From NCBI GenBank assembly GCA_003445795.1, contig DMCN01000066.1, positions 23,294 to 85,056 of the forward strand: 61,763 nucleotides of DNA. The letters are read 5' to 3'. Below are positions 6,377-26,764 of this stretch, piece by piece (the stretch's first letter is position 1; the number at the start of each line of letters is the position of its first letter). Below the pieces are notes generated by a model, which made no database searches, was not told the origin of the DNA, and saw only the letters and a program-made list of their open reading frames with translations. The translations under genes were made by a program, and so were the position numbers. The DNA is from Gallionellaceae bacterium (GTDB taxonomy: Bacteria > Pseudomonadota > Gammaproteobacteria > Burkholderiales > Gallionellaceae).

Positions 6377-6728
6377 TTTTTCTTGCCCCCTGTATTTGAA
6401 CCACCTCAAGTTTGCTGTACAGCGCATCCAGCTTGGATTCGATCACCGTCTGCCCACGTATGTAGTCTTCGCGCCTGACATACAGCACCGGCAAGCTGAT
6501 TTGGAAGGCTGAAAAATCCTTTTCAAACTGGCGCAGTTGTTCGGCCACTTTGATGTCTTCGGCCGCGCGCTTGGTCAGATCGGAGTTGATCGATGTAAAA
6601 CGCTGGTCCAGCAGCGCCTTGAACTGTTTCACCAGAATCGTCCCGAATGCCCACACCACCAAGGCAAAGGCCACAATGCACGATGCAATGCCGGTGATCA
6701 GTTGCCACAATTCAATCTGCACTTGCAT
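6369..6728 (-). CDS. Membrane-anchored coiled-coil protein (Mu gp25-like)
   Basis: N-terminal transmembrane helix then 'LPVLYVRREDYIR...IESKLD'; conserved position before gp26. Confidence 0.65.
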   Translation of the reverse strand: MQVQIELWQLITGIASCIVAFALVVWAFGTILVKQFKALLDQRFTSINSDLTKRAAEDIKVAEQLRQFEKDFSAFQISLPVLYVRREDYIRGQTVIESKLDALYSKLEVVQIQGARKND

Positions 6729-6951
6729 ATCTGCCTTTCAATTTCTTCAATCGTTCATTCCGTTCCTGGCACTCCGCGCAGAACTGCACACCAGGGATAG
6801 CCTCGCGCCGCTTTTCCGGTATCGGCTCCCCGCAATGCGGATCCGTGCAAAACTCTGCCGATGCAACTGTGGGTGTGGGCATGATTGCCTGCTTCTGGCG
6901 GGCCTCCCACTCGTCCGCCTCGATTTCCTGTGCTCTATCTGCTGGTCTCAC
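6712..6951 (-). CDS. TraR/DksA-family C4 zinc-finger protein
   Basis: 'D.AQEIE', 'CTDPHCGEPIPEKRREAIPGVQFCAECQ'. Confidence 0.85.
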   Translation of the reverse strand: MRPADRAQEIEADEWEARQKQAIMPTPTVASAEFCTDPHCGEPIPEKRREAIPGVQFCAECQERNERLKKLKGRYASAD

Positions 6952-6960
6952 TGTGGATCC

Positions 6961-7245
6961 TTAAAGGTTGCTCGGTGACACAGACAGTTCGCCCTGGCAC
7001 GCGCCCTGATAAGGCGCATCCGTCTCCCAGCGATACTTCCAGGTGCCCTTCTCGGTCAGCGCCACATCGCACTGGAACGAGCCGACACCCAGCCGGGTTA
7101 CGGTGCCGGGGTAGGTGTAATTCGTGGTGACACCGGCGGGTGTCTTTACCTTCAGCGTCGCCGTGGCGGGGTCGGCAGCCGCGCCCGCCATATCCTTCAC
7201 CTGCATCGATATGCGCCCCATCTCGCCTACCAGCCAATTAGCCAT
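6961..7245 (-). CDS. Hypothetical all-beta (Ig-like) protein
   Basis: Beta pattern 'TLKVKTPAG...GVGSFQCDVALTEKGTWKYRWET'; start overlaps the upstream stop. Confidence 0.6.
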   Translation of the reverse strand: MANWLVGEMGRISMQVKDMAGAAADPATATLKVKTPAGVTTNYTYPGTVTRLGVGSFQCDVALTEKGTWKYRWETDAPYQGACQGELSVSPSNL

Positions 7246-8293
7246 GCGCCACCTCCGCAGTCAGGCTTGCCACACGGCTGAGTGAATCGCTCAACGTCCA
7301 CAAGCGCAGCGCCTGCGCGCTGTGGCTGCTTGTGCGGCCCACAGACGGCGTGATCGAGGCGAGTCGTGCAATGCCAGCCGACAGGGCCGCGATGCGCGCC
7401 ACAGCCCCGCTGAGGCGCACCGGGTGCATCAGCATGAAGACGGTCAGGCTGCCGCTGGCCAGCGCCTGCGCCAGGGCATCGGCGCTCAGCGCGATGCGGG
7501 CCGTCAGCTCACCGGCGGCACCAACCAATGCGGCGGCTGGGCCAGTCAAGTGGATCTGCGTGGTGAGGATCGCGGCGGCGCTGGCCTGCGCTTGCGCAGC
7601 GCCTTCCAGTTGCGCGGCAGGGCCGGTGAAAGCGCCGCTGGCGCTGGCTTGGGCCGATGCATCGCCCGCCAGCGGGATAGCGCTGGTCAGCCCGGCAGCG
7701 GCCACGGCCTGCGCCAGCGCACCGCCGCCCAGCGTTATCTGTGCGGTAAGTTGTCCGTTGACGGTGACCAGCGCGATGGCGGCCCCGGACAGCGAGATCT
7801 GCGCGGACAGGTCGCCCGATGCGCCAACGCTGGCGATAGCTGCGCCGCCGAGCGAGATGCCAGATGTCAGCGCGGCGCTGGCATTGGCTTGTGCGATGGA
7901 ATCGGCATACAGCTTGATGGCAGTAGTGAGAGCGCCGGTGGCCGCAGACACCGCAACAGCGGCACCGGCCAGTTCGGCAGCAGATCCGCCGACCGTCAGA
8001 TCGGCGGCGGCTGTAGCCTGCGCAACCGCATCGGCATTGAGCCTGATCGCAGCATCGAGCGCGCCGGTCGCCGTGGCCAGCGCGACGGCATCGGCGTTGA
8101 GTTGTATTGCAGATGACAGCGCGCCCGTGGCAGCGGCCAGCACTGCGGCATCACCCGCCAACGCGGCAGCGCCCGCAGAGACGGTGAACAGGTCGTCTTC
8201 AAGGACCAAGGCAGAATCGGGCGCATCCCAGGCGAACTCATCGCCTATCCATGCGCCTTCGTCCAGATCGTGCTGAAAGTTATCTCTCTGCAT
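7238..8293 (-). CDS. Ala/Gly-rich repeat protein, putative fibre shaft
   Basis: About 12 tandem ~20-aa repeats (I-x-L-x-G/A-x-A-x-A-x-A-x-A-x-G-x-L) followed by ~10-aa repeats. Confidence 0.7.
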   Translation of the reverse strand: MQRDNFQHDLDEGAWIGDEFAWDAPDSALVLEDDLFTVSAGAAALAGDAAVLAAATGALSSAIQLNADAVALATATGALDAAIRLNADAVAQATAAADLTVGGSAAELAGAAVAVSAATGALTTAIKLYADSIAQANASAALTSGISLGGAAIASVGASGDLSAQISLSGAAIALVTVNGQLTAQITLGGGALAQAVAAAGLTSAIPLAGDASAQASASGAFTGPAAQLEGAAQAQASAAAILTTQIHLTGPAAALVGAAGELTARIALSADALAQALASGSLTVFMLMHPVRLSGAVARIAALSAGIARLASITPSVGRTSSHSAQALRLWTLSDSLSRVASLTAEVAHG

Positions 8294-8296
8294 GGC

Positions 8297-9127
8297 TTAT
8301 CCGTGAAGGAGCTTGCCGCGCCCCTTTACCGTTCCGGTTGAAGTGGCCGTGCAAAGCATCAATCCCATCAAGCATGCATCGTTGCGAATCTTGGGGAAGC
8401 CGAGTTGCGCATAGGTGAATAGCGCCGTTTTGTTGGCTACGGCTTCTGTGGACATCTCGGTGCGGTGCCTTGTGCAGGTGATGCCGAAGTTGCCTGCCGT
8501 ACCTGTCGAAGCAGACAGGGTGACGCTGTTCACGCCACGGATGAACTTGCCGTTGGTCACCAGCGTATGCAGCGGAGTCATCCGGCCTGCAGGCATCGCT
8601 GTGCCGCCGATGGCGATGGCGGTAAGGTTGCCGGTAGTGCCGTCGCCATACGTGACGTTAACGGTAGCGTTGGAAGCCGTTGCGCCTGTCGCGGTGTACC
8701 ACTCCAACCACCAGGACAAATCGGAGTAATCTACATCGCCCAGGCGCTCTGCGGCCGGTGCAGTCACAGTTAGATCACAGCTCGTTGTGTTCTGCCCGGT
8801 GGTGACGTTGCCTACCAGTCCACCGAAATGAAGCAGTCGGTCGTGGATCTCAAGGTTGTTGTTCGCGTTGCCCGTTTGCAGCGTGTGCCAGCCGATGTAG
8901 GAGACCGCAGGGTCGGTCTGATTCGTGAACGGATGCGCGCCTGCCAAGGCGCTGGTGCAGACCGCAGAAGCTGCCGGGATAGCCGCCTGTGTCGGAATTC
9001 CCGTTGCTCTCCAGAGCGAGCAGTAAGTACCGGCCACCTGCGTGGCGATGGAAGCCTTGTCCCAGACCAGTTTTTCGTGCTGGTTTCCAAGCTTACTCAC
9101 CAGCGCATCGCGCGTATCGATGGTCAT
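8297..9127 (-). CDS. Hypothetical Thr/Gly-rich beta protein, probably structural
   Basis: 276-aa ORF translationally coupled to its neighbours; beta-rich composition. Confidence 0.65.
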   Translation of the reverse strand: MTIDTRDALVSKLGNQHEKLVWDKASIATQVAGTYCSLWRATGIPTQAAIPAASAVCTSALAGAHPFTNQTDPAVSYIGWHTLQTGNANNNLEIHDRLLHFGGLVGNVTTGQNTTSCDLTVTAPAAERLGDVDYSDLSWWLEWYTATGATASNATVNVTYGDGTTGNLTAIAIGGTAMPAGRMTPLHTLVTNGKFIRGVNSVTLSASTGTAGNFGITCTRHRTEMSTEAVANKTALFTYAQLGFPKIRNDACLMGLMLCTATSTGTVKGRGKLLHG

Positions 9128-9288
9128 ACGGCCTCCAGATAGGAAGCATCGAAGCCGCCCGCATCCTGATCGAGGATGAAGACGGTCGTTCCGTCCGGGT
9201 TATTCACGATGTCTGCGATGGTGTAGACGCCGGGAAAAGACTCGGCGAACACCCCGACAACGCGCACTGGCTGGCCGATTGCGAACAT
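9124..9288 (-). CDS. 54-aa hypothetical protein (below ORF-track cutoff)
   Basis: MFAIGQPVRVVGVFAESFPGVYTIADIVNNPDGTTVFILDQDAGGFDASYLEAV; fills the gap exactly and its stop overlaps the next ATG. Confidence 0.7.
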   Translation of the reverse strand: MFAIGQPVRVVGVFAESFPGVYTIADIVNNPDGTTVFILDQDAGGFDASYLEAV

Positions 9289-9291
9289 GGC

Positions 9292-9795
9292 TTAGTTGTC
9301 GAGCTGCAAGGTGGCTGCGCCCGCCGCAAAGCTGGGGGCGGCATCGCCGTTGTTGATCGTCTTGGGCGTGGTCAAGGCGGTGCGCCATAGCAGGTTGCCC
9401 GAGGTGGACGCATCGAACACGCAGTACTCGGTAACCAATCCCCAGCTCGCCGTGGGTGCCGGGAAGGTGATCGCGGCGTTGTTACTGGTGGTGCCGCCCG
9501 TACCGCTTGATGCGGCGGTGCTGCCAGCCGATTGCGTACCCGCCCAGTTAGCCAGGCTGGAGGTGACCGCCACCCTGGCATAGCTGCCGCCCGTGACCTC
9601 GGTGCCGCAGGCCGCATCCGACCCGGTGCTGGTCGCCAGCGCGACGTACACCGTGACGGGCATGGTGTACGCCTGGCCGCGCAGCAGTGCGTCGACGAGC
9701 TTGTTTTCGAGGTAGTCGGAAAGTGCACCGGCTTGCACCACAGCGGTGAAAGCCAGCAGCAACAGTCCGGTGATGAGGCGTTTAACTTTGTTCAT
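9292..9795 (-). CDS. Phage fibre-associated structural protein ('SDYLENKL' family) with an N-terminal signal-peptide-like extension
   Basis: AAGGA RBS; MNKVKR-LITGLLLLAFTAV-VQA/GALSDYLENKL; core 'GTEVTGGSYARVAV', 'ITFPAPTASWG', 'FDASTSGNLL'. Confidence 0.75.
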   Translation of the reverse strand: MNKVKRLITGLLLLAFTAVVQAGALSDYLENKLVDALLRGQAYTMPVTVYVALATSTGSDAACGTEVTGGSYARVAVTSSLANWAGTQSAGSTAASSGTGGTTSNNAAITFPAPTASWGLVTEYCVFDASTSGNLLWRTALTTPKTINNGDAAPSFAAGAATLQLDN

Positions 9796-9807
9796 GTCGT
9801 CGTCCTT

Positions 9808-10050
9808 TTAACGGTGAGAATCGCATTCGGCCAGCTTACGGAGCTGGTCGCGGCATTGGCTGTAAAGCTCCATCGACTCGATGTGGTTGTCGCGCAAGTC
9901 CGCCAACCTTCCCGACTTCGCCGGTGGCGGTGCTGGACAATCGGTAGTCAAGTTTGCCGAGCAGGGGCGCGGCTGTATTAGCGTTGGCTGCGTTCCAGAG
10001 GCGCAGGCTGTTAGCATCAAGGCTGCAATCAGCGGTAACAGGGTTTTCAT
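9808..10050 (-). CDS. o-spanin (Rz1-like lipoprotein)
   Basis: Lipobox LTAC, Pro-rich, second Cys; overlaps the 3' part of the i-spanin. Confidence 0.85.
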   Translation of the reverse strand: MKTLLPLIAALMLTACASGTQPTLIQPRPCSANLTTDCPAPPPAKSGRLADLRDNHIESMELYSQCRDQLRKLAECDSHR

Positions 10051-10291
10051 TGGCTTTCTCCTTGATCGTTCGGTACACCACACGGATCTGCTCGCGCGAG
10101 GTTTCGCGCGACTGGGCTACTTGTTCACGGCCTGTATTGGTTTCGTCCACCTTGGCTTGCGCGGCCTGCTGCGCTTGGGTTTGGTCGATGGCGCAGGCGG
10201 ACGACGCATGCTTGTCGCCATAGGCGTAACCGATACCGAACAGCGCGATAGATGACACAACCACGGCCAGCCAGTAGTTGAACGGGCTCAT
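9836..10291 (-). CDS. i-spanin (Rz-like)
   Basis: N-terminal TM, coiled coil, 'CSLDANSLRLWNAAN'; follows the holin. Confidence 0.8.
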   Translation of the reverse strand: MSPFNYWLAVVVSSIALFGIGYAYGDKHASSACAIDQTQAQQAAQAKVDETNTGREQVAQSRETSREQIRVVYRTIKEKANENPVTADCSLDANSLRLWNAANANTAAPLLGKLDYRLSSTATGEVGKVGGLARQPHRVDGALQPMPRPAP

Positions 10292-10524
10292 TCCATCCTC
10301 CCCAGACCAAACATCAGCGGGGCTGTGGTGACGACACGCAGCGCAGTGTTGGCGACCGGAATCAGGATCGCCAACCACTGGTAGATTTCAGGCGATACCA
10401 GCGGCTTGATGGCCTCGTACTTCACTTCCAGCACGATGCCGATGGCCGAGAGCAGGTTCACCCACAGGGTGCGGGACTTGTACCAGGGCTTGAGTTCGAC
10501 GACGCGCGCCACTTGAGTGTCCAT
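10288..10524 (-). CDS. Holin-like membrane protein
   Basis: Two hydrophobic segments, 'WYKSRTLWVN'; lies between endolysin and spanins. Confidence 0.75.
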   Translation of the reverse strand: MDTQVARVVELKPWYKSRTLWVNLLSAIGIVLEVKYEAIKPLVSPEIYQWLAILIPVANTALRVVTTAPLMFGLGRME

Positions 10525-10532
10525 GTGATTTC

Positions 10533-11003
10533 CTATGCGACGGTGTTGCGTGAGAGGGAAAGCCCGGCGGTATAGCTGACGCGGCCCTTGTCAAAATGGG
10601 CGGTCAACTCTTCGCAGCGATTGTTGTGGCGGGAAATAGCGAGATGCACCCACGCCCCTTCGTGGATGAGCTGGTCGTAATCGATCAGCGACCCGGCGAT
10701 CTTTTGTGCCACTTCCAGCGGGCTACCGAAGTCAGGGGCGATGAAGTCGACAGCCAAGCCATGCATGTGCGCACTGGTCTTCGCCCCGCCGATGGCCGCA
10801 TTGAGCGCCGGGCAGCGATAGCCGCTGCTGATGTAGATCGGAACGCCCAACTGCGCGCGCACACGCTCCATCGTGTCGGCAAGCAATCCAAGATTGCGCA
10901 CCACCTCGAAAGGCGGGTTGCTGTTGTTGATGCCCAAACGCAGCGCGGTGTCCGAGCGCAGCATTTCGTCCAGGGAAAAGTGATCAGTCAGGCGGAGTTT
11001 CAT
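10533..11003 (-). CDS. Endolysin, peptidase M15 family
   Basis: 'LTDHFSLDEM', 'ISSGYRCPALN..IGG...SAHMHGLAVDF', 'WVHLA'. Confidence 0.9.
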   Translation of the reverse strand: MKLRLTDHFSLDEMLRSDTALRLGINNSNPPFEVVRNLGLLADTMERVRAQLGVPIYISSGYRCPALNAAIGGAKTSAHMHGLAVDFIAPDFGSPLEVAQKIAGSLIDYDQLIHEGAWVHLAISRHNNRCEELTAHFDKGRVSYTAGLSLSRNTVA

Positions 11004-11161
11004 GCCTTGCTCCAGCGCGAAGGCTCAATCAGGCAAAGGGATCGCTCAACGGTGTAATGCCCCACCGGACGCTTTGCGCATGAGCCGTAGTAATCCATGC
11101 GCGGATCGGTATGGCGCGTCCAGTTGGCACAAGTGCCGCAGGTGTGTTGAGGTGTGTTCAT
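11000..11161 (-). CDS. 53-aa four-cysteine mini-protein, first gene of the left late arm
   Basis: MNTPQHTCGTCANW...GSCAKRP...CLIEPSRWSKA; stop overlaps the endolysin ATG; missed by the ORF track. Confidence 0.65.
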   Translation of the reverse strand: MNTPQHTCGTCANWTRHTDPRMDYYGSCAKRPVGHYTVERSLCLIEPSRWSKA

Positions 11162-11169
11162 GGCACGCG

Positions 11170-11217
11170 AGGTTACGCGCGCGCGGGGAGAGGGTTAAGC
11201 CGGAAACGTTTCCGCAA
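11170..11217 (-). promoter_or_regulatory. Late promoter (left arm): Mor/C-type dyad CGGAAACGTTTCCG + CTTAAC-N18-TAACCT
   Basis: 24 bp identical, inverted, to 24101-24124; palindrome at 11201-11214; same 18-nt spacing to a -10-like hexamer. Confidence 0.75.
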
Positions 11218-11244
11218 AAAAGAAAAACCCCGCACTGGGCGGGG
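11216..11244 (-). terminator. Intrinsic terminator of the repressor/accessory operon
   Basis: CCCCGC-N5-GCGGGG hairpin followed by a T-rich tract on the minus strand. Confidence 0.75.
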
Positions 11245-11277
11245 CTGGTTCAGTAGAGGGTGTGCGATTATTTATTT

Positions 11278-11727
11278 TTAGTAGAGCGTTCTCACTCGCA
11301 CGTATTTTTCAGTCATGCTTCGCGCGGAATCCTCTGGCAATTCATTGAAATCTGCTACGGTTGAAATGTCGTAATTGTAGAAATAGGACTTTCCAGCTTC
11401 GCATTTCACGAGCCTAGGGGTTGCATAAGGACCAGAAATCCAATGTTCTCCAGGAACAACATCCTTCACCACATAGCTACCTGGTGCAAGTCTCGAAATC
11501 TCTCGTCCATCAATAGAAAGTGGCCATGCACCTACCGCCCCGAGTAGCATCACCTCGCGAATAATTACCAAAGTGGCCTTTCCTTCGGTGGGTTTCGAGA
11601 TGAATTTCCCTTGTTCGTCATGTTTAAATTCAGGCGGGACAACTGCACATCCGGCAAGCAATATTGTCAACAAAGCAAATGGGATAAGCGCTCTTTTCAT
11701 GTATTTCTCCATGTCAAATCTTCTCAA
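11278..11727 (-). CDS. Accessory lipoprotein (DUF2846-like)
   Basis: Lipobox LAGC; 'KATLVIIR...LSIDG..I..LAPGSY...V.PGEH.I...CEAGKSYF'; the true start may be a downstream Met. Confidence 0.75.
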   Translation of the reverse strand: MRRFDMEKYMKRALIPFALLTILLAGCAVVPPEFKHDEQGKFISKPTEGKATLVIIREVMLLGAVGAWPLSIDGREISRLAPGSYVVKDVVPGEHWISGPYATPRLVKCEAGKSYFYNYDISTVADFNELPEDSARSMTEKYVRVRTLY

Positions 11728-12412
11728 CCACCACGGCTGTGCCGCTAGCCACGAGGAATAGCATACTCTTCCCGCCCCCGGATATCTCGCTGTAGTCCAG
11801 ATCCACGCCGATCACAGCATTGGCGCCGAGGCGGTCGGCTTCTGCCTTCAGGTTGACCAGGCAAGATTCACGCGCTTCGCGCAGTTCGTCTTGCAACGAT
11901 CCGCTGCGACCGCCGATCGCATCCGTAATGCTGGCAAAAAACTCCCGGATCACATTCACGCCGCCGACGTATTCGGCGGTGATGATCTCGCGGTGGTCAA
12001 CGATGCGATACCCTTCCAGTTGCGGCGCGGTGGTGGTTTTGATGCTGGATACGCGACGCATCCACTCTTCCAGCTTGGCCTGCTTTTGGGCTTCCCTTTC
12101 CTGCTCGGAAAGGATCTCTGATTCTTTTAGAAACCCGCTCAAAACCTCACCGACACCCTCGATCACTGTGTCCTGTATTGGGTATGTAACAAGCGAAATA
12201 CCCAACGACCCAGCTGCCACGCGATGGTTAATGACTTGCCTGTTGCGGATCACCACCAGGTCGTTTTCAGCGCCAACATTAGCGGGTGAAACTAAATCCC
12301 TGATCGTTTCGAGTTCGAGGCCGTTGTATTTGTACAGCACATCATGCACGCGAATACCCAGCTTTGCGGCTTTCCCAGTTGGATCGACATCGACAACAAC
12401 GAGACCTGGCAT
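11714..12412 (-). CDS. PDZ-like domain fused to a YbjQ/UPF0145 domain
   Basis: N-terminal 'VVVDVDPTGKAAKLGIRVHDVLYKYNG'; C-terminal 'TTAPQLEGYRI...GGRSGSLQDELREARE...GANAVIGVDLDY...LVASGTAV'. Confidence 0.8.
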   Translation of the reverse strand: MPGLVVVDVDPTGKAAKLGIRVHDVLYKYNGLELETIRDLVSPANVGAENDLVVIRNRQVINHRVAAGSLGISLVTYPIQDTVIEGVGEVLSGFLKESEILSEQEREAQKQAKLEEWMRRVSSIKTTTAPQLEGYRIVDHREIITAEYVGGVNVIREFFASITDAIGGRSGSLQDELREARESCLVNLKAEADRLGANAVIGVDLDYSEISGGGKSMLFLVASGTAVVVEKI

Positions 12413-12423
12413 AACAACCTCCC

Positions 12424-13008
12424 TCAGAAAAAACTAGATGCATATGGTGGCGGTGGCGGAAACCTCTTCGCCCACCCAAGTCGCATAAACACTTCCAGCA
12501 ACTTCTGCATGCCGTCCTTATCGAGGCGCTTCATATGCTCAAGCCCACCGCTCTGCGCACTCATCTTCACCGACAGGTTATACAGATCGGCGGCGTATCC
12601 AATCTGGACTGCGGCTGGTTGCGCCTCAAACTCGGCCCCGTGCACCTGCCTGCAAGCAGCGTGACAAGCCGCCAGGATATTCACCTCAATCGCCGAACCT
12701 GTCGCCTCTGATGATCCGCCAGCCATGTACACGTTTTCCAGTTGACGCAATCTTCTGGGAGATCCGGTAGTCACGGTTTGTGAATATTCTGGTGAAAATA
12801 CAGCATCGAGGGATATGCCGCGTCCGTTCGAGACGGCAACCACCTCGTCGTATGGAATCGACCCGCTCTTCTTGCGATTGGCGAATGTATTGGGCTTCAT
12901 GCCCAGTGCATCGGCCAGTTCGGCATCCGTTTTAACGGCTAGCAGAACCCGCAGCCGATCCATGACGGCGTCAAATAGTTCACGATTTGTGTTTTCCGTG
13001 CTTGACAT
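12424..13008 (-). CDS. Prophage repressor (CI-type HTH, no peptidase domain)
   Basis: 'TDAELADALGMKPNTFANRKKSGSIPY'; divergent from ner. Confidence 0.85.
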   Translation of the reverse strand: MSSTENTNRELFDAVMDRLRVLLAVKTDAELADALGMKPNTFANRKKSGSIPYDEVVAVSNGRGISLDAVFSPEYSQTVTTGSPRRLRQLENVYMAGGSSEATGSAIEVNILAACHAACRQVHGAEFEAQPAAVQIGYAADLYNLSVKMSAQSGGLEHMKRLDKDGMQKLLEVFMRLGWAKRFPPPPPYASSFF

Positions 13009-24074: not shown

Positions 24075-24102
24075 AGCCCCGCACTCGCGGGGCTTTCTTA
24101 TT
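24075..24102 (+). terminator. Intrinsic terminator of the early operon
   Basis: AGCCCCGC-ACTC-GCGGGGCT followed by TTCTTATT. Confidence 0.75.
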
Positions 24103-24148
24103 GCGGAAACGTTTCCGGCTTAACTGCATCGGTCGCCATCGCCAGAAT
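24101..24148 (+). promoter_or_regulatory. Late promoter (right arm): dyad CGGAAACGTTTCCG + CTTAAC-N18-CAGAAT
   Basis: Identical 24-mer to 11194-11217 (inverted). Confidence 0.75.
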
Positions 24149-25726: not shown

Positions 25727-26764
25727 ATGAGACTCACCAAACCCCTGTTCTGGATCTTCGGCACGATTGTGCTGGCCGCGATCTGTCTGATCGTCGGCGC
25801 GCCTTCCGCGCCCGCCGCACATTCGTTCGATGTTCCCGCCATCGGCATGGCTGGCATGCTGGTCAACAAAGACACGCTGGCCAGCATCTTCACCGGCCTG
25901 AAAACCATCTTCAACAACACGCTGAAGGCAGCGCCGGGCAATTGGTCGGCGACGGCGATGGAAGTGCAGTCCGATGCCGAGGGCGAAGACTACATGTGGC
26001 TCAGCCGCTTCCCGAAGCTGCGCAAGTGGTTGGGTGACAAGGTCGTCAAGAACCTCAAGGCCGGTAAGTACTACAAGGTCAACGAAGATTGGGAAACCAC
26101 CATCGCCGTCAAGCGCAATCATATCGACGACGACCGCCTGGGGATCTACAACACGCAGGCTCAACAGGCTGGCGAAGCGGCCTCCGAACTGCATGACATC
26201 ATCGTTGACGATCTGAAGAACAAGGCGTTCACCGAAGCCTGCTTCGACGGTCAGTTCTACTACGACACCGATCACCCGGTGAAAGATGCCAGCGTGAGCA
26301 ACAAGGGCACGATGGCGCTGTCTTGCGCAACCAAGGCGGCCGCAGTGGCAAGTTACGGCGCGGCGCGCACCACGGTCATGAGCTTCAAGGATGAAGAAGG
26401 CATGCCGCTGCGCCTGATCCCGGACACGCTGGAAGTTCCGCCCGCGCTGGAAGCCACGGCCCGCACGCTGTGCGAGTCGGACAAGCTGGATGACAACTCA
26501 CCCAACCCGTACAAGGGTTCCGCGACTGTGCTGGTGAACCCGGCGCTGACCAGTGCCACCGGCTGGATGCTGCACGTTACCAAGAAAGCTTCGGTGAAGC
26601 CGTTCATCGTGCAGATGCGCAAGAAGCCGATCTTTGTGTCGCAGACCAGCGCAGACAACGACGACGTGTTCAACCGTGCCGAGTACAAGTTCGGCGCCGA
26701 AGCGCGCGCAACCGGTCTGTATGGCTACTGGCAGCTGTCTTACGGCAGCACCGGCGCGGCTTAA
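25727..26764 (+). CDS. Major capsid protein (Mu gpT family) with a ~43-aa hydrophobic N-terminal extension
   Basis: AGGAG RBS; 'EDYMWL..FPKLRKWLGD', 'CFDGQFYYDTDHPV', 'VPPALEATA'; extension MRLTKPLFWIFGTIVLAAICLIVGA... Confidence 0.92.
   Translation: MRLTKPLFWIFGTIVLAAICLIVGAPSAPAAHSFDVPAIGMAGMLVNKDTLASIFTGLKTIFNNTLKAAPGNWSATAMEVQSDAEGEDYMWLSRFPKLRKWLGDKVVKNLKAGKYYKVNEDWETTIAVKRNHIDDDRLGIYNTQAQQAGEAASELHDIIVDDLKNKAFTEACFDGQFYYDTDHPVKDASVSNKGTMALSCATKAAAVASYGAARTTVMSFKDEEGMPLRLIPDTLEVPPALEATARTLCESDKLDDNSPNPYKGSATVLVNPALTSATGWMLHVTKKASVKPFIVQMRKKPIFVSQTSADNDDVFNRAEYKFGAEARATGLYGYWQLSYGSTGAA

What the first reader, a model, noticed from the sequence alone, without database searches (positions are those of the whole stretch)
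6961..9795. Five-gene fibre-like structural module embedded in the lysis-packaging arm
Seen: tightly coupled genes (167-aa 'SDYLENKL' protein, 54-aa peptide, 276-aa beta protein, 351-aa repeat protein, 94-aa Ig-like protein) lie between the spanins and TraR, far from the tail operon, which already has J and a fibre. Mu has no equivalent here. Inference: a second appendage (head fibre, collar whisker or spike) for adsorption, or an exported surface structure.
Basis: partly seen in the sequence, partly recalled or inferred. Interest (0 to 1): 0.65.

Follow-up and report, generated by a model that had tools for sequence, protein, structure and literature searches.

The report
Beads-on-a-rope phage neck fibre module
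Five tightly packed late genes in a Mu-like prophage most likely build a "beads-on-a-string" accessory fibre of a kind recently seen by cryo-EM in a few phages. The oddity is that its only bead protein carries a classic secretion signal, so it should be made outside the compartment where virions assemble.

Summary
The five minus-strand genes exist exactly as described (6961-9795). They are translationally coupled and sit inside a late lysis-packaging operon, where BcepMu-type relatives have nothing.

- **p167** is a Gp80-family protein (Pfam E 7e-45; PDB 8JOU chain a, E 8e-16). This is the dimeric "bead" of the chain-like fibres of GP4, VP1, A1002, Bas63 and Sf14.
- **p351** has about 13 twenty-residue repeats. 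They are homologous to repeat proteins that lie between Gp80 and Gp77 genes in other prophages, so it is the candidate "rope".
- **p94** is a confident Ig-like sandwich in the collar-adaptor position, but it is not a Gp77 family member.
- **p276** is a two-jelly-roll protein from a large unannotated family. It is always followed by a gene whose product starts with one conserved motif (46 of 46). It is sometimes fused to SGNH esterases, so it is probably the distal head.

Surprise: p167 and 116 of its 120 closest homologues carry a variable Sec-type signal peptide plus a fixed cysteine pair, which leaderless homologues lack.

Verdict: a real virion-appendage module and a new variant of a known kind. 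How an exported bead reaches the virion is unexplained.

The parts
9292..9795 (-). p167: Gp80-family bead (whisker / Fiber-I subunit). The mature domain is encoded by 9295-9729.
   Evidence: Pfam PF23140 E 7e-45, 152.9 bits against a cut-off of 27. PDB 8JOU chain a E 8e-16 over residues 24-164. phrog_240. It is the only Gp80 gene in the genome.
9730..9795 (-). Sec-type signal peptide of p167 (residues 1-22, MNKVKRLITGLLLLAFTAVVQA, then GALSDYLENK).
   Evidence: It has the n-h-c layout with A-x-A. 116 of the 120 best homologues have such a leader: Ala at -4 in 106/116, 2-3 K/R in the first 10 residues in 110/116, no D/E in 109/116. Leaders are 23% identical, against 80% for the first 60 mature residues. 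Two Cys (C63, C125) sit at fixed positions in 115/116 and are absent from leaderless homologues. The RBS AAGGA lies 7 nt before the ATG.
9124..9288 (-). p54: small partner encoded just upstream of p276.
   Evidence: Homologues occupy the same position in 16 of 52 p276 loci. In L003 and L015 it forms the C-terminal part of a 121-131 aa protein. No family match.
8297..9127 (-). p276: two-jelly-roll protein, proposed distal head or adaptor that binds the rope N-terminus.
   Evidence: AF2 pLDDT 88.5, pTM 0.88. BFVD matches only uncharacterised Caudovirales proteins at TM 0.75-0.81. The PDB best hit is birnavirus VP2, E 3e-6 but TM 0.17. 2409 representative clusters. C-terminal fusions to GDSL/SGNH esterase domains exist. 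It is always followed by an N-motif gene.
8186..8293 (-). p351 N-terminal motif (residues 1-36): a degenerate copy of the consensus P-x-x-D-x-P...R-G-G-x-D-x-W-D...L-x-x-D-x-F.
   Evidence: An HMM of this motif hits 46 of 4608 ORFs in 56 loci. All 46 are the gene immediately after (or overlapping the end of) a p276 gene.
7409..8194 (-). p351 repeat region (residues 34-295): about 13 units of 20 residues (…G-x-L-T-x-x-I-x-L-x-G-x-A-x-A…), the proposed rope.
   Evidence: Period-20 autocorrelation and register. 38% identity, E 9e-18, to the 310-aa repeat protein that lies between an SP-Gp80 gene and a Gp77 gene in L062; E 9e-10 to the L063 rope. Partner ropes in other loci have periods of 20-24 and lengths of 188-879 aa.
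7241..7408 (-). p351 C-terminal tail (residues 296-351) with 5-6 Arg-hydrophobic units about 10 residues apart, proposed to dock on the Ig-like protein.
   Evidence: Read from the sequence. Similar Arg-periodic tails end the ropes of L007, L010 and L053, which are followed by 93-98 aa Ig-like or Gp77 proteins. The docking role is inference.
6961..7245 (-). p94: Ig-like beta-sandwich, candidate collar or fibre adaptor.
   Evidence: AF2 pLDDT 87.2 with 7 strands. Foldseek finds only generic Ig/filamin folds. It sits where Gp77 sits in L010, L053, L062, L064, Itty13 and Bcep22. It is not Gp77 by Pfam or hhalign.
11194..11217 (-). 24-mer shared with the start of the other late arm (24101-24124), following a hairpin terminator; the presumed late activator/promoter element that drives the arm holding the module.
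   Evidence: Identical sequence TTGCGGAAACGTTTCCGGCTTAAC on both arms. Terminator at 11246-11226.

Best explanation
The five genes encode an accessory virion fibre of the beads-on-a-rope type, made late together with the lysis and packaging proteins.

- **Rope.** p351 is a single extended chain. Each of its roughly 13 twenty-residue repeats offers short beta-strands that complete the open beta-sandwiches of p167 dimers, so the repeat number sets the fibre length (roughly 6 to 13 dimers).
- **Distal end.** The conserved N-terminal motif of p351 is held by the jelly-roll protein p276, with the small p54. This forms a distal head that probably contacts cell-surface glycans.
- **Proximal end.** The Arg-periodic C-terminal tail of p351 plugs into a ring of the Ig-like p94 at the head-tail junction, playing the part of GP4 gp77 or the Bas63 collar.
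- **Bead.** p167 is predicted to be exported by Sec, cut by signal peptidase to give the same N-terminus as leaderless homologues, and oxidised to one disulfide.

Shown: family membership of p167, the repeat structure and homology of p351, the folds of p276 and p94, the synteny, the late-operon layout and the signal-peptide signature.

Inferred: all contacts, the attachment site, the function in adsorption, and how exported beads meet the rope.
For: - p167 matches PF23140 at E 7e-45 and the solved GP4 Fiber-I chain.
- Published cryo-EM shows Gp80-fold dimers threaded on a rope in GP4, A1002 and VP1 (PMC13730344) and in Bas63 and Sf14 (PMC12609058, PMC11821841).
- p351 has about 13 x 20-aa repeats. 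They are homologous to ropes flanked by Gp80 and Gp77 genes.
- In A1002, about 268 rope residues carry 11 dimers, about 24 per dimer. That is the same scale as the repeat here.
- The order bead, head, rope, small Ig-like protein recurs in an HK97-like siphophage between capsid and connector genes (L003, L063), in a myophage (L005) and in Mu-like prophages (L007, L062, L064).
- The proteins upstream of p276 in other loci belong to bead families. They match KPP25 ORF006 and ORF007, the length-exact counterparts of A1002 gp40 and gp41, at E 1e-14 and 3e-19.
- The rope N-motif occurs only next to p276, 46 of 46.
- p276 is fused to SGNH esterases in some phages.
- Bcep22's bead, rope-position and Gp77-position proteins are annotated as virion-associated.
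- The module has no internal signals and sits in an arm headed by the same 24-mer as the head-tail arm.
- BcepMu and YPCBV-1 lack the block.
Against: - The only bead gene in the genome has a conserved Sec signal peptide and a Cys pair. That places it in the periplasm, whereas virions assemble in the cytoplasm. No precedent was found: the missing N-terminus of A1002 gp41 is not signal-like in KPP25 ORF007.
- p94 is not Gp77 by Pfam, hhalign or Foldseek, so its collar role rests on position and fold alone.
- p276 is unusually conserved for a receptor-binding tip (62% mean column identity). In Rhodobacter Casjensviridae phages it lies among replication genes.
- No complex was modelled, and there are no virion proteomics for this phage.
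Confidence: 0.62

Rival explanations
1. The module, or at least p167, is not a virion part. p167 would be a secreted periplasmic or surface lectin-like protein made late. It might mask the phage's receptor on lysing cells and debris, or exclude superinfecting phages. The other four proteins would have a separate or supporting role.
For: Canonical, conserved signal peptide and periplasm-type Cys pair in 116 of 120 homologues. The gene directly follows the lysis genes here and in L062. Only p167 has a leader.
Against: Genes for signal-peptide-bearing beads always sit beside a repeat rope and an Ig-like or Gp77 gene inside head-neck-tail clusters of three different phage types. The rope repeats have no known partner other than the bead. 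The mature protein starts exactly where virion beads start. Family members are structurally proven virion parts.
Confidence: 0.13
2. It is a virion fibre, but it is anchored on the capsid (a head fibre or decoration) rather than on a neck collar. p94 would act as a capsid-binding Ig-like decoration domain.
For: In L003 and L063 the module lies directly after the major capsid gene. Ig-like proteins often decorate capsids (Hoc-like). GP4 Fiber I and the Bas63 up-whiskers touch the capsid. p94 is not Gp77.
Against: In every solved case the rope is rooted at the neck or tail. In L064 the module lies between Mu gp36 and the tail terminator. In L003 and L063 it is followed by the gp6-like connector gene.
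Confidence: 0.12
3. p54 and p276 are not structural. They would be an enzyme or an assembly factor acting on the rope N-terminus, for example threading or capping during assembly or modifying a glycan, and would be absent from the finished fibre.
For: p276 is very conserved, with invariant polar residues (K24, D96, R97, Q112, D136, E142, and the E93-x-H-D-R-x-x-H100 motif). It occurs with very short partners of 71-84 aa and among replication genes in some phages.
Against: No enzyme fold was found; the matches are jelly-roll capsid and lectin-like folds. Fusion to SGNH esterase domains and tandem 2-3 copy forms look like fibre-head architecture. Assembly chaperones are usually encoded after, not before, the fibre gene (established knowledge).
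Confidence: 0.15
4. The block is decaying cargo with no current function.
For: It is an insertion relative to BcepMu-type relatives. p276 occurs in only 1 of 201 genomes of the host's order.
Against: All five frames are intact and coupled, with 82-89% identical counterparts in the same order elsewhere (L007, P0002, P0121, P0126).
Confidence: 0.03

Closest known systems
Fiber I complex of Ralstonia podophage GP4 (gp80 dimers on a separately encoded rope, docked on the 15-mer Ig-like fibre-tail adaptor gp77; PDB 8JOU; Zheng et al. 2023, cited through PMC13730344, PMC11445570 and PMC12609058)
   Same: p167 is a clear gp80 homologue. The rope is a separate gene product, and a protein of about 93 aa with an Ig-like fold follows the rope gene. 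The same bead, rope, adaptor order is seen in Bcep22 and Itty13.
   Different: The host phage is a Mu-like transposable siphophage, not a podophage. The rope has about 13 repeats; GP4 carries five dimers. p94 is not in the Gp77 family. An extra p54+p276 pair lies between bead and rope, and there is no Fiber II or tailspike gene. The bead has a signal peptide and a Cys pair that gp80 lacks.
Collar-whisker assembly of myophages Bas63 and Sf14 (PMC12609058, PMC11821841)
   Same: Gp80-fold whisker dimers are strung on a rope rooted in an Ig-like collar at the head-tail junction of a long-tailed phage. This shows the system is not confined to podophages.
   Different: In Bas63 the rope is the N-terminal extension of the collar protein and carries only two dimers. 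Here rope and Ig-like protein are separate, and the rope is far longer.
Chain-like fibres of Pseudomonas podophage A1002 / KPP25 (gp39 nozzle-rope, gp40 and gp41 dimers; PMC13730344)
   Same: Many dimers (11) sit on a long rope by beta-sheet augmentation, at about 24 rope residues per dimer. The rope's extension ends in an Ig-like domain of the rope protein itself, comparable to a head. Bead families that match KPP25 ORF006 and ORF007, the counterparts of gp40 and gp41, accompany p276 in other loci.
   Different: The A1002 rope is fused to the tail nozzle, two bead proteins are used, and there is no p276 and no signal peptide.
Bead-chain neck fibres of Anabaena myophage A-1(L) (gp80-gp82 on a gp5 pentadecamer; PMC10966104)
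   Same: A long beaded neck fibre encoded away from the other structural genes, with a larger carbohydrate-binding-type terminal bead.
   Different: The beads are trimers joined head to tail without a rope. No sequence relation was found, so the resemblance is analogy only.

Membership tests
Pfam PF23140 Gp80 (GP4 Fiber I / whisker bead) | Profile match above the curated cut-off over the whole domain | tested here: met
   152.9 bits against a cut-off of 27, profile positions 1-128 of 128. 8JOU_a E 8e-16.
Pfam PF23140 Gp80 (GP4 Fiber I / whisker bead) | Forms dimers that wrap a rope strand in the virion | not testable with these tools
   No multimer modelling or proteomics was available. Inferred from homology.
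Bead-on-rope collar fibre system (GP4 / Bas63 / A1002 type) | Adjacent gene (or domain) with tandem repeats of about 20-24 residues that serves as the rope | tested here: met
   About 13 x 20-aa units. Homologous to ropes flanked by Gp80 and Gp77 genes, E 9e-18. That it functions as a rope is inferred.
Bead-on-rope collar fibre system (GP4 / Bas63 / A1002 type) | Ig-like collar or adaptor that roots the rope on the virion | tested here: inconclusive
   p94 is Ig-like and sits in the Gp77 gene position. No specific similarity to gp77 or the Bas63 collar was found.
Bead-on-rope collar fibre system (GP4 / Bas63 / A1002 type) | Encoded within, and expressed with, the virion structural genes | tested here: met
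   The block is coupled inside the late arm. The same module lies in head-neck clusters elsewhere. Expression itself was not measured.
Pfam PF23148 Gp77 (fibre-tail adaptor) | Profile match; failing that, profile-profile or fold similarity | tested here: not met
   No Pfam hit at E<=1. hhalign probability 0.6% against a Gp77 alignment. 8JOU is not among the top 50 Foldseek hits. p94 is therefore not filed as Gp77.
Sec / signal peptidase I secreted proteins (p167 leader) | Basic n-region, hydrophobic h-region, small residues at -3 and -1; conserved in features but not in sequence | tested here: met
   116 of 120 homologues; statistics. No dedicated predictor was available.
Sec / signal peptidase I secreted proteins (p167 leader) | Actual export and cleavage | not testable with these tools
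   Needs PhoA or BlaM fusions, or N-terminal sequencing.
Birnavirus VP2-like / nodavirus-like jelly-roll capsid proteins (p276) | Global fold superposition | tested here: not met
   Foldseek E 3e-6 but TM 0.15-0.19 and rmsd about 19 Å. Only a general jelly-roll resemblance.

The most novel reading that the evidence does not exclude
A large subfamily of phage fibre beads is exported to the periplasm, signal-cleaved and disulfide-bonded there. The beads would be loaded onto ropes of cytoplasmically built virions only when holin and lysis merge the compartments. That would be a final virion maturation step gated by lysis. It would use the cell's oxidising compartment to harden an external virion part, and no such step is known to me for tailed phages.
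Probability: 0.3. Interest if true: 0.85.

Novelty: new variant of a known kind. Interest (0 to 1): 0.62.

Why it matters
Bead-on-rope fibres have been solved in only a handful of phages since 2023. This module shows the same construction kit in a transposable Mu-like siphophage, and it exposes two unannotated parts of the kit.

- **The p276 / N-motif pair.** It spans about 2400 diverse protein clusters with no name. It appears to be the exchangeable head-to-rope joint, sometimes carrying a sugar esterase.
- **A signal-peptide-bearing bead subfamily.** It has over a hundred close members and a conserved cysteine pair.

The second point raises a directly testable question about where and when virion appendages are finished. 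Practically, it gives names to thousands of hypothetical phage proteins. It also points to a length-programmable, modular adhesin that could affect host range.

Tried and rejected
- **p94 as a Gp77 member:** rejected. Pfam, hhalign and Foldseek were all negative.
- **p276 as a relative of any 8JOU chain or other solved phage protein:** no sequence hit. Foldseek against PDB gives only low-TM jelly-roll capsid matches.
- **p351 against PDB chains:** only spurious antibody hits. The Itty13 rope-position protein finds nothing beyond itself in phage records, so ropes are too divergent for sequence searches.
- **A1002 gp41's missing N-terminal 30 residues as a precedent for a cleaved signal peptide:** rejected. 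KPP25 ORF007 begins with a polar beta-hairpin-like segment.
- **hhalign of the other bead-position families against the p167 family:** inconclusive with shallow alignments. This was resolved instead through PHROGs and the KPP25 matches. Family F0 (phrog_644) remains unlinked.
- **PF23140 scan of 46 records:** hit only 6, so most p276 loci use other bead families.
- **NCBIfam:** nothing.
- **"Two adjacent prophages" reading of the window:** rejected in favour of one prophage with an inverted arm. The plus strand has no terminase or portal, the left flank looks like host DNA, and both arms share a promoter element.
- **GP4 primary paper:** not held, so its facts are cited second-hand.
Full report
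**Observation.** Junctions range from an 8-nt overlap to a 12-nt gap. The coding strand has no promoter-like or terminator-like site inside the block. Upstream lie an M15-type endolysin, a small membrane ORF and nested spanin ORFs. Downstream lie TraR/DksA, homologues of BcepMu gp25 and gp26, the Mu gp27-type small terminase, the large terminase, the portal, MuF and a Neck1/gpG protein.

**Context.** The window holds one transposable prophage of about 40 kb. The repressor is at 12424-13008. Transposase A and B, head protease, major capsid protein, tape measure, a lambda-J-like central fibre and fibre genes are on the plus strand. The lysis-packaging arm is inverted to the left of the repressor. 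The DNA further left looks like host DNA.

Both arms start after a hairpin terminator followed by the identical 24-mer TTGCGGAAACGTTTCCGGCTTAAC. The module therefore belongs to a co-regulated late transcript; that is a layout argument, and expression was not measured. The nearest terminases (about 56% identity) are in BcepMu-like phages. In BcepMu and YPCBV-1 the spanin genes are followed directly by the gp25/gp26-like genes. The block, together with TraR, is therefore an insertion. p276 occurs in only 1 of 201 genomes of the host's order.

**The bead.** p167 matches Pfam PF23140 "Podophage GP4 fiber I protein gp80" at E 7e-45. It matches chain a of PDB 8JOU at E 8e-16. Published cryo-EM work shows that proteins of this fold form dimers strung on an extended rope:
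- GP4 has five dimers on a separate rope protein, docked on a 15-mer of the 93-aa Ig-like gp77.
- A1002 has 11 dimers on the nozzle-rope gp39, joined by beta-sheet augmentation.
- VP1 has a similar chain-like fibre (PMC13730344, PMC11445570).
- The myophages Bas63 and Sf14 have an Ig-like collar whose N-terminal rope carries whisker dimers "like beads on a string" (PMC12609058, PMC11821841).

**The rope.** p351 has three parts: an acidic N-terminal segment, about 13 units of 20 residues (…G-x-L-T-x-x-I-x-L-x-G-x-A-x-A…), and a 56-residue tail with Arg-hydrophobic units about 10 residues apart.

Its repeats are 38% identical (E 9e-18) to a 310-aa repeat protein in a Nitrosospira Mu-like prophage. 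That protein lies between a Gp80 gene and a bona fide Gp77 gene. The repeats are also similar to a 470-aa repeat protein in an HK97-like prophage.

The A1002 rope uses about 268 residues for 11 dimers, which is the same scale as one repeat per dimer here. Whether one or two repeats serve a dimer is open, which gives 6-13 dimers. Bcep22 gp61 and Itty13 gp15 sit between the bead gene and the Gp77 gene. Both show weaker repeats of about 20 aa. Bcep22's bead, rope-position and Gp77-position proteins are annotated as virion-associated.

**The Ig-like protein.** p94 folds confidently (pLDDT 87) as a seven-strand sandwich that matches only generic Ig and filamin domains. It occupies the gene position held by Gp77-family proteins in L010, L053 (which follows a p351 homologue), L062, L064, Itty13 and Bcep22. 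It is not detectably Gp77 by Pfam (no hit), hhalign (probability 0.6%) or Foldseek (8JOU absent from the top 50). I therefore treat it as a functional stand-in by position and fold only.

**The head pair.** p276 belongs to a large family without any annotation. It has 3649 clusters at 90% identity and 2409 representatives at 50% identity. AF2 gives a confident two-jelly-roll model. In the viral library that model matches only uncharacterised Caudovirales proteins, at TM about 0.8. Among solved structures it matches jelly-roll capsid proteins only loosely, at TM 0.17.

In 50 viral contigs and several prophages, the gene right after p276 encodes a protein that begins with one conserved motif: P-x-x-D-x-P…R-G-G-x-D-x-W-D…L-x-x-D-x-F. 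The copy in p351 is degenerate. An HMM of this motif hits 46 of 4608 ORFs, and every hit is the ORF adjacent to p276. After the motif come repeats with periods of 20-24 and total lengths of 188-879 aa. In one group of phages there is only a short tail of 71-84 aa.

Upstream of p276 lie p54-like small ORFs (16 loci) and one of four families of 130-190 aa proteins:
- The Gp80 family itself.
- A family that matches KPP25 ORF007 at E 3e-19.
- A family that matches KPP25 ORF006 at E 1e-14.
- phrog_644, which remains unlinked.

KPP25 ORF005-008 have exactly the lengths reported for A1002 gp39-42. Two of these families are therefore counterparts of beads seen in a cryo-EM map.

Some p276 domains are fused behind GDSL/SGNH esterase domains or occur as tandem copies, which is an architecture typical of fibre heads. 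I conclude, as inference, that p276 with p54 caps the distal N-terminus of the rope. A role as assembly factor or enzyme is not excluded. p276 is unusually conserved, and in Rhodobacter Casjensviridae phages it lies among replication genes.

**The anomaly.** p167 begins MNKVKRLITGLLLLAFTAVVQA, then GALSDYLENK. Of its 120 best homologues (71-100% identical, mostly from betaproteobacterial assemblies), 116 have a leader of 17-54 residues with these features:
- 2-3 basic residues at the start.
- No acidic residues.
- A hydrophobic core.
- Ala at -1 (106 of 116) and a small residue at -3 of the predicted cleavage site.
- Leaders only 23% identical to each other, against 80% for the first 60 residues of the mature part.
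- Exactly two cysteines at fixed positions (115 of 116).

Leaderless relatives lack that cysteine pair: L012, L003, Mvi-JY20, Itty13 and Bcep22, and GP4 gp80 over the 136 of its 140 residues seen in the alignment. Cleavage would produce the same N-terminus with which the leaderless beads start. In Bas63 the first residues and the N-terminal helix make the dimer.

This is the signature of a Sec-exported, disulfide-bonded periplasmic protein. Yet these genes always sit in head-neck-tail clusters next to a rope and an Ig-like or Gp77 gene. p167 is the only Gp80 gene in the genome, and none of the other four proteins has a leader.

I could find no precedent for this. The unseen N-terminus of A1002 gp41 is not signal-like in KPP25 ORF007. 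The least strained reading is that the beads mature in the periplasm and meet the rope when holin and lysis join the compartments. This is speculation and is given separately as the novel case.

**Comparison and novelty.** The module works like the GP4 Fiber I and Bas63 collar-whisker systems, and p167 is a member of the Gp80 family. It differs in five respects:
- The host phage is a Mu-like siphophage.
- The rope is longer.
- The Ig-like protein is not Gp77.
- A p54/p276 head pair with its N-motif joint is added.
- The bead is exported.

It is a new variant of a known kind. Earlier AI notes from this scan describe similar rope and bead modules elsewhere. I did not use them as evidence, but they indicate that the basic kit is widespread.

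**Verdict.** Confidence in the bead-on-rope virion fibre explanation is 0.62, and interest is 0.62.

Noticed in passing
window 555-40400; 11194-11217 and 24101-24124: This is one prophage whose lysis-packaging arm is inverted relative to the BcepMu/YPCBV-1 gene order. Both late arms start after a hairpin terminator followed by the identical 24-mer TTGCGGAAACGTTTCCGGCTTAAC, which looks like a shared late-activator site.
   Followed up: partly
window 25727-25855: The major capsid protein starts with a signal-like or transmembrane-like segment (MRLTKPLFWIFGTIVLAAICLIVGAPSAPAAH). It is the second structural protein of this phage with such a leader, after p167.
   Followed up: no
window 11278-12412: Two minus-strand genes lie between the repressor and a strong terminator (11246-11226): a lipoprotein-like gene (phrog_890) and a 232-aa protein (phrog_15412). 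They look like lysogen-expressed cargo.
   Followed up: no
L001 (Rhodobacter phage RcPutin 12103-12942) and L002 (Microcystis phage Mvi-JY20): p276 homologues (53-55% identical) lie among DNA polymerase, nuclease, RNR and dCMP deaminase genes rather than structural genes. Their partners are short (63-82 aa).
   Followed up: partly
P0260, P0269 (representative library): The p276 domain is fused C-terminally to a GDSL/SGNH esterase domain. Other members carry two or three tandem p276 domains (P0264, P0297, P0277).
   Followed up: partly
L064 6435-6986: A sigma-70/ECF-like ORF (183 aa) sits inside a Mu-like head-tail module, directly upstream of the signal-peptide-bearing bead gene.
   Followed up: no
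L067 (KPP25 7852-11869): KPP25 ORF005-008 have exactly the lengths given for A1002 gp39-42 (620, 147, 171 and 398 aa). The KPP25 record annotates them only as structural or hypothetical proteins.
   Followed up: partly
window 6961-7245: p94 has two cysteines (C59, C83) that are conserved in 4 of 6 family members. This is a possible intradomain or inter-subunit disulfide, like those reported in the Bas63 collar.
   Followed up: no
window 6712-6951: The TraR/DksA zinc-finger gene next to the module is also absent from the equivalent position in BcepMu and YPCBV-1, so it may have arrived with, or next to, the fibre block.
   Followed up: no
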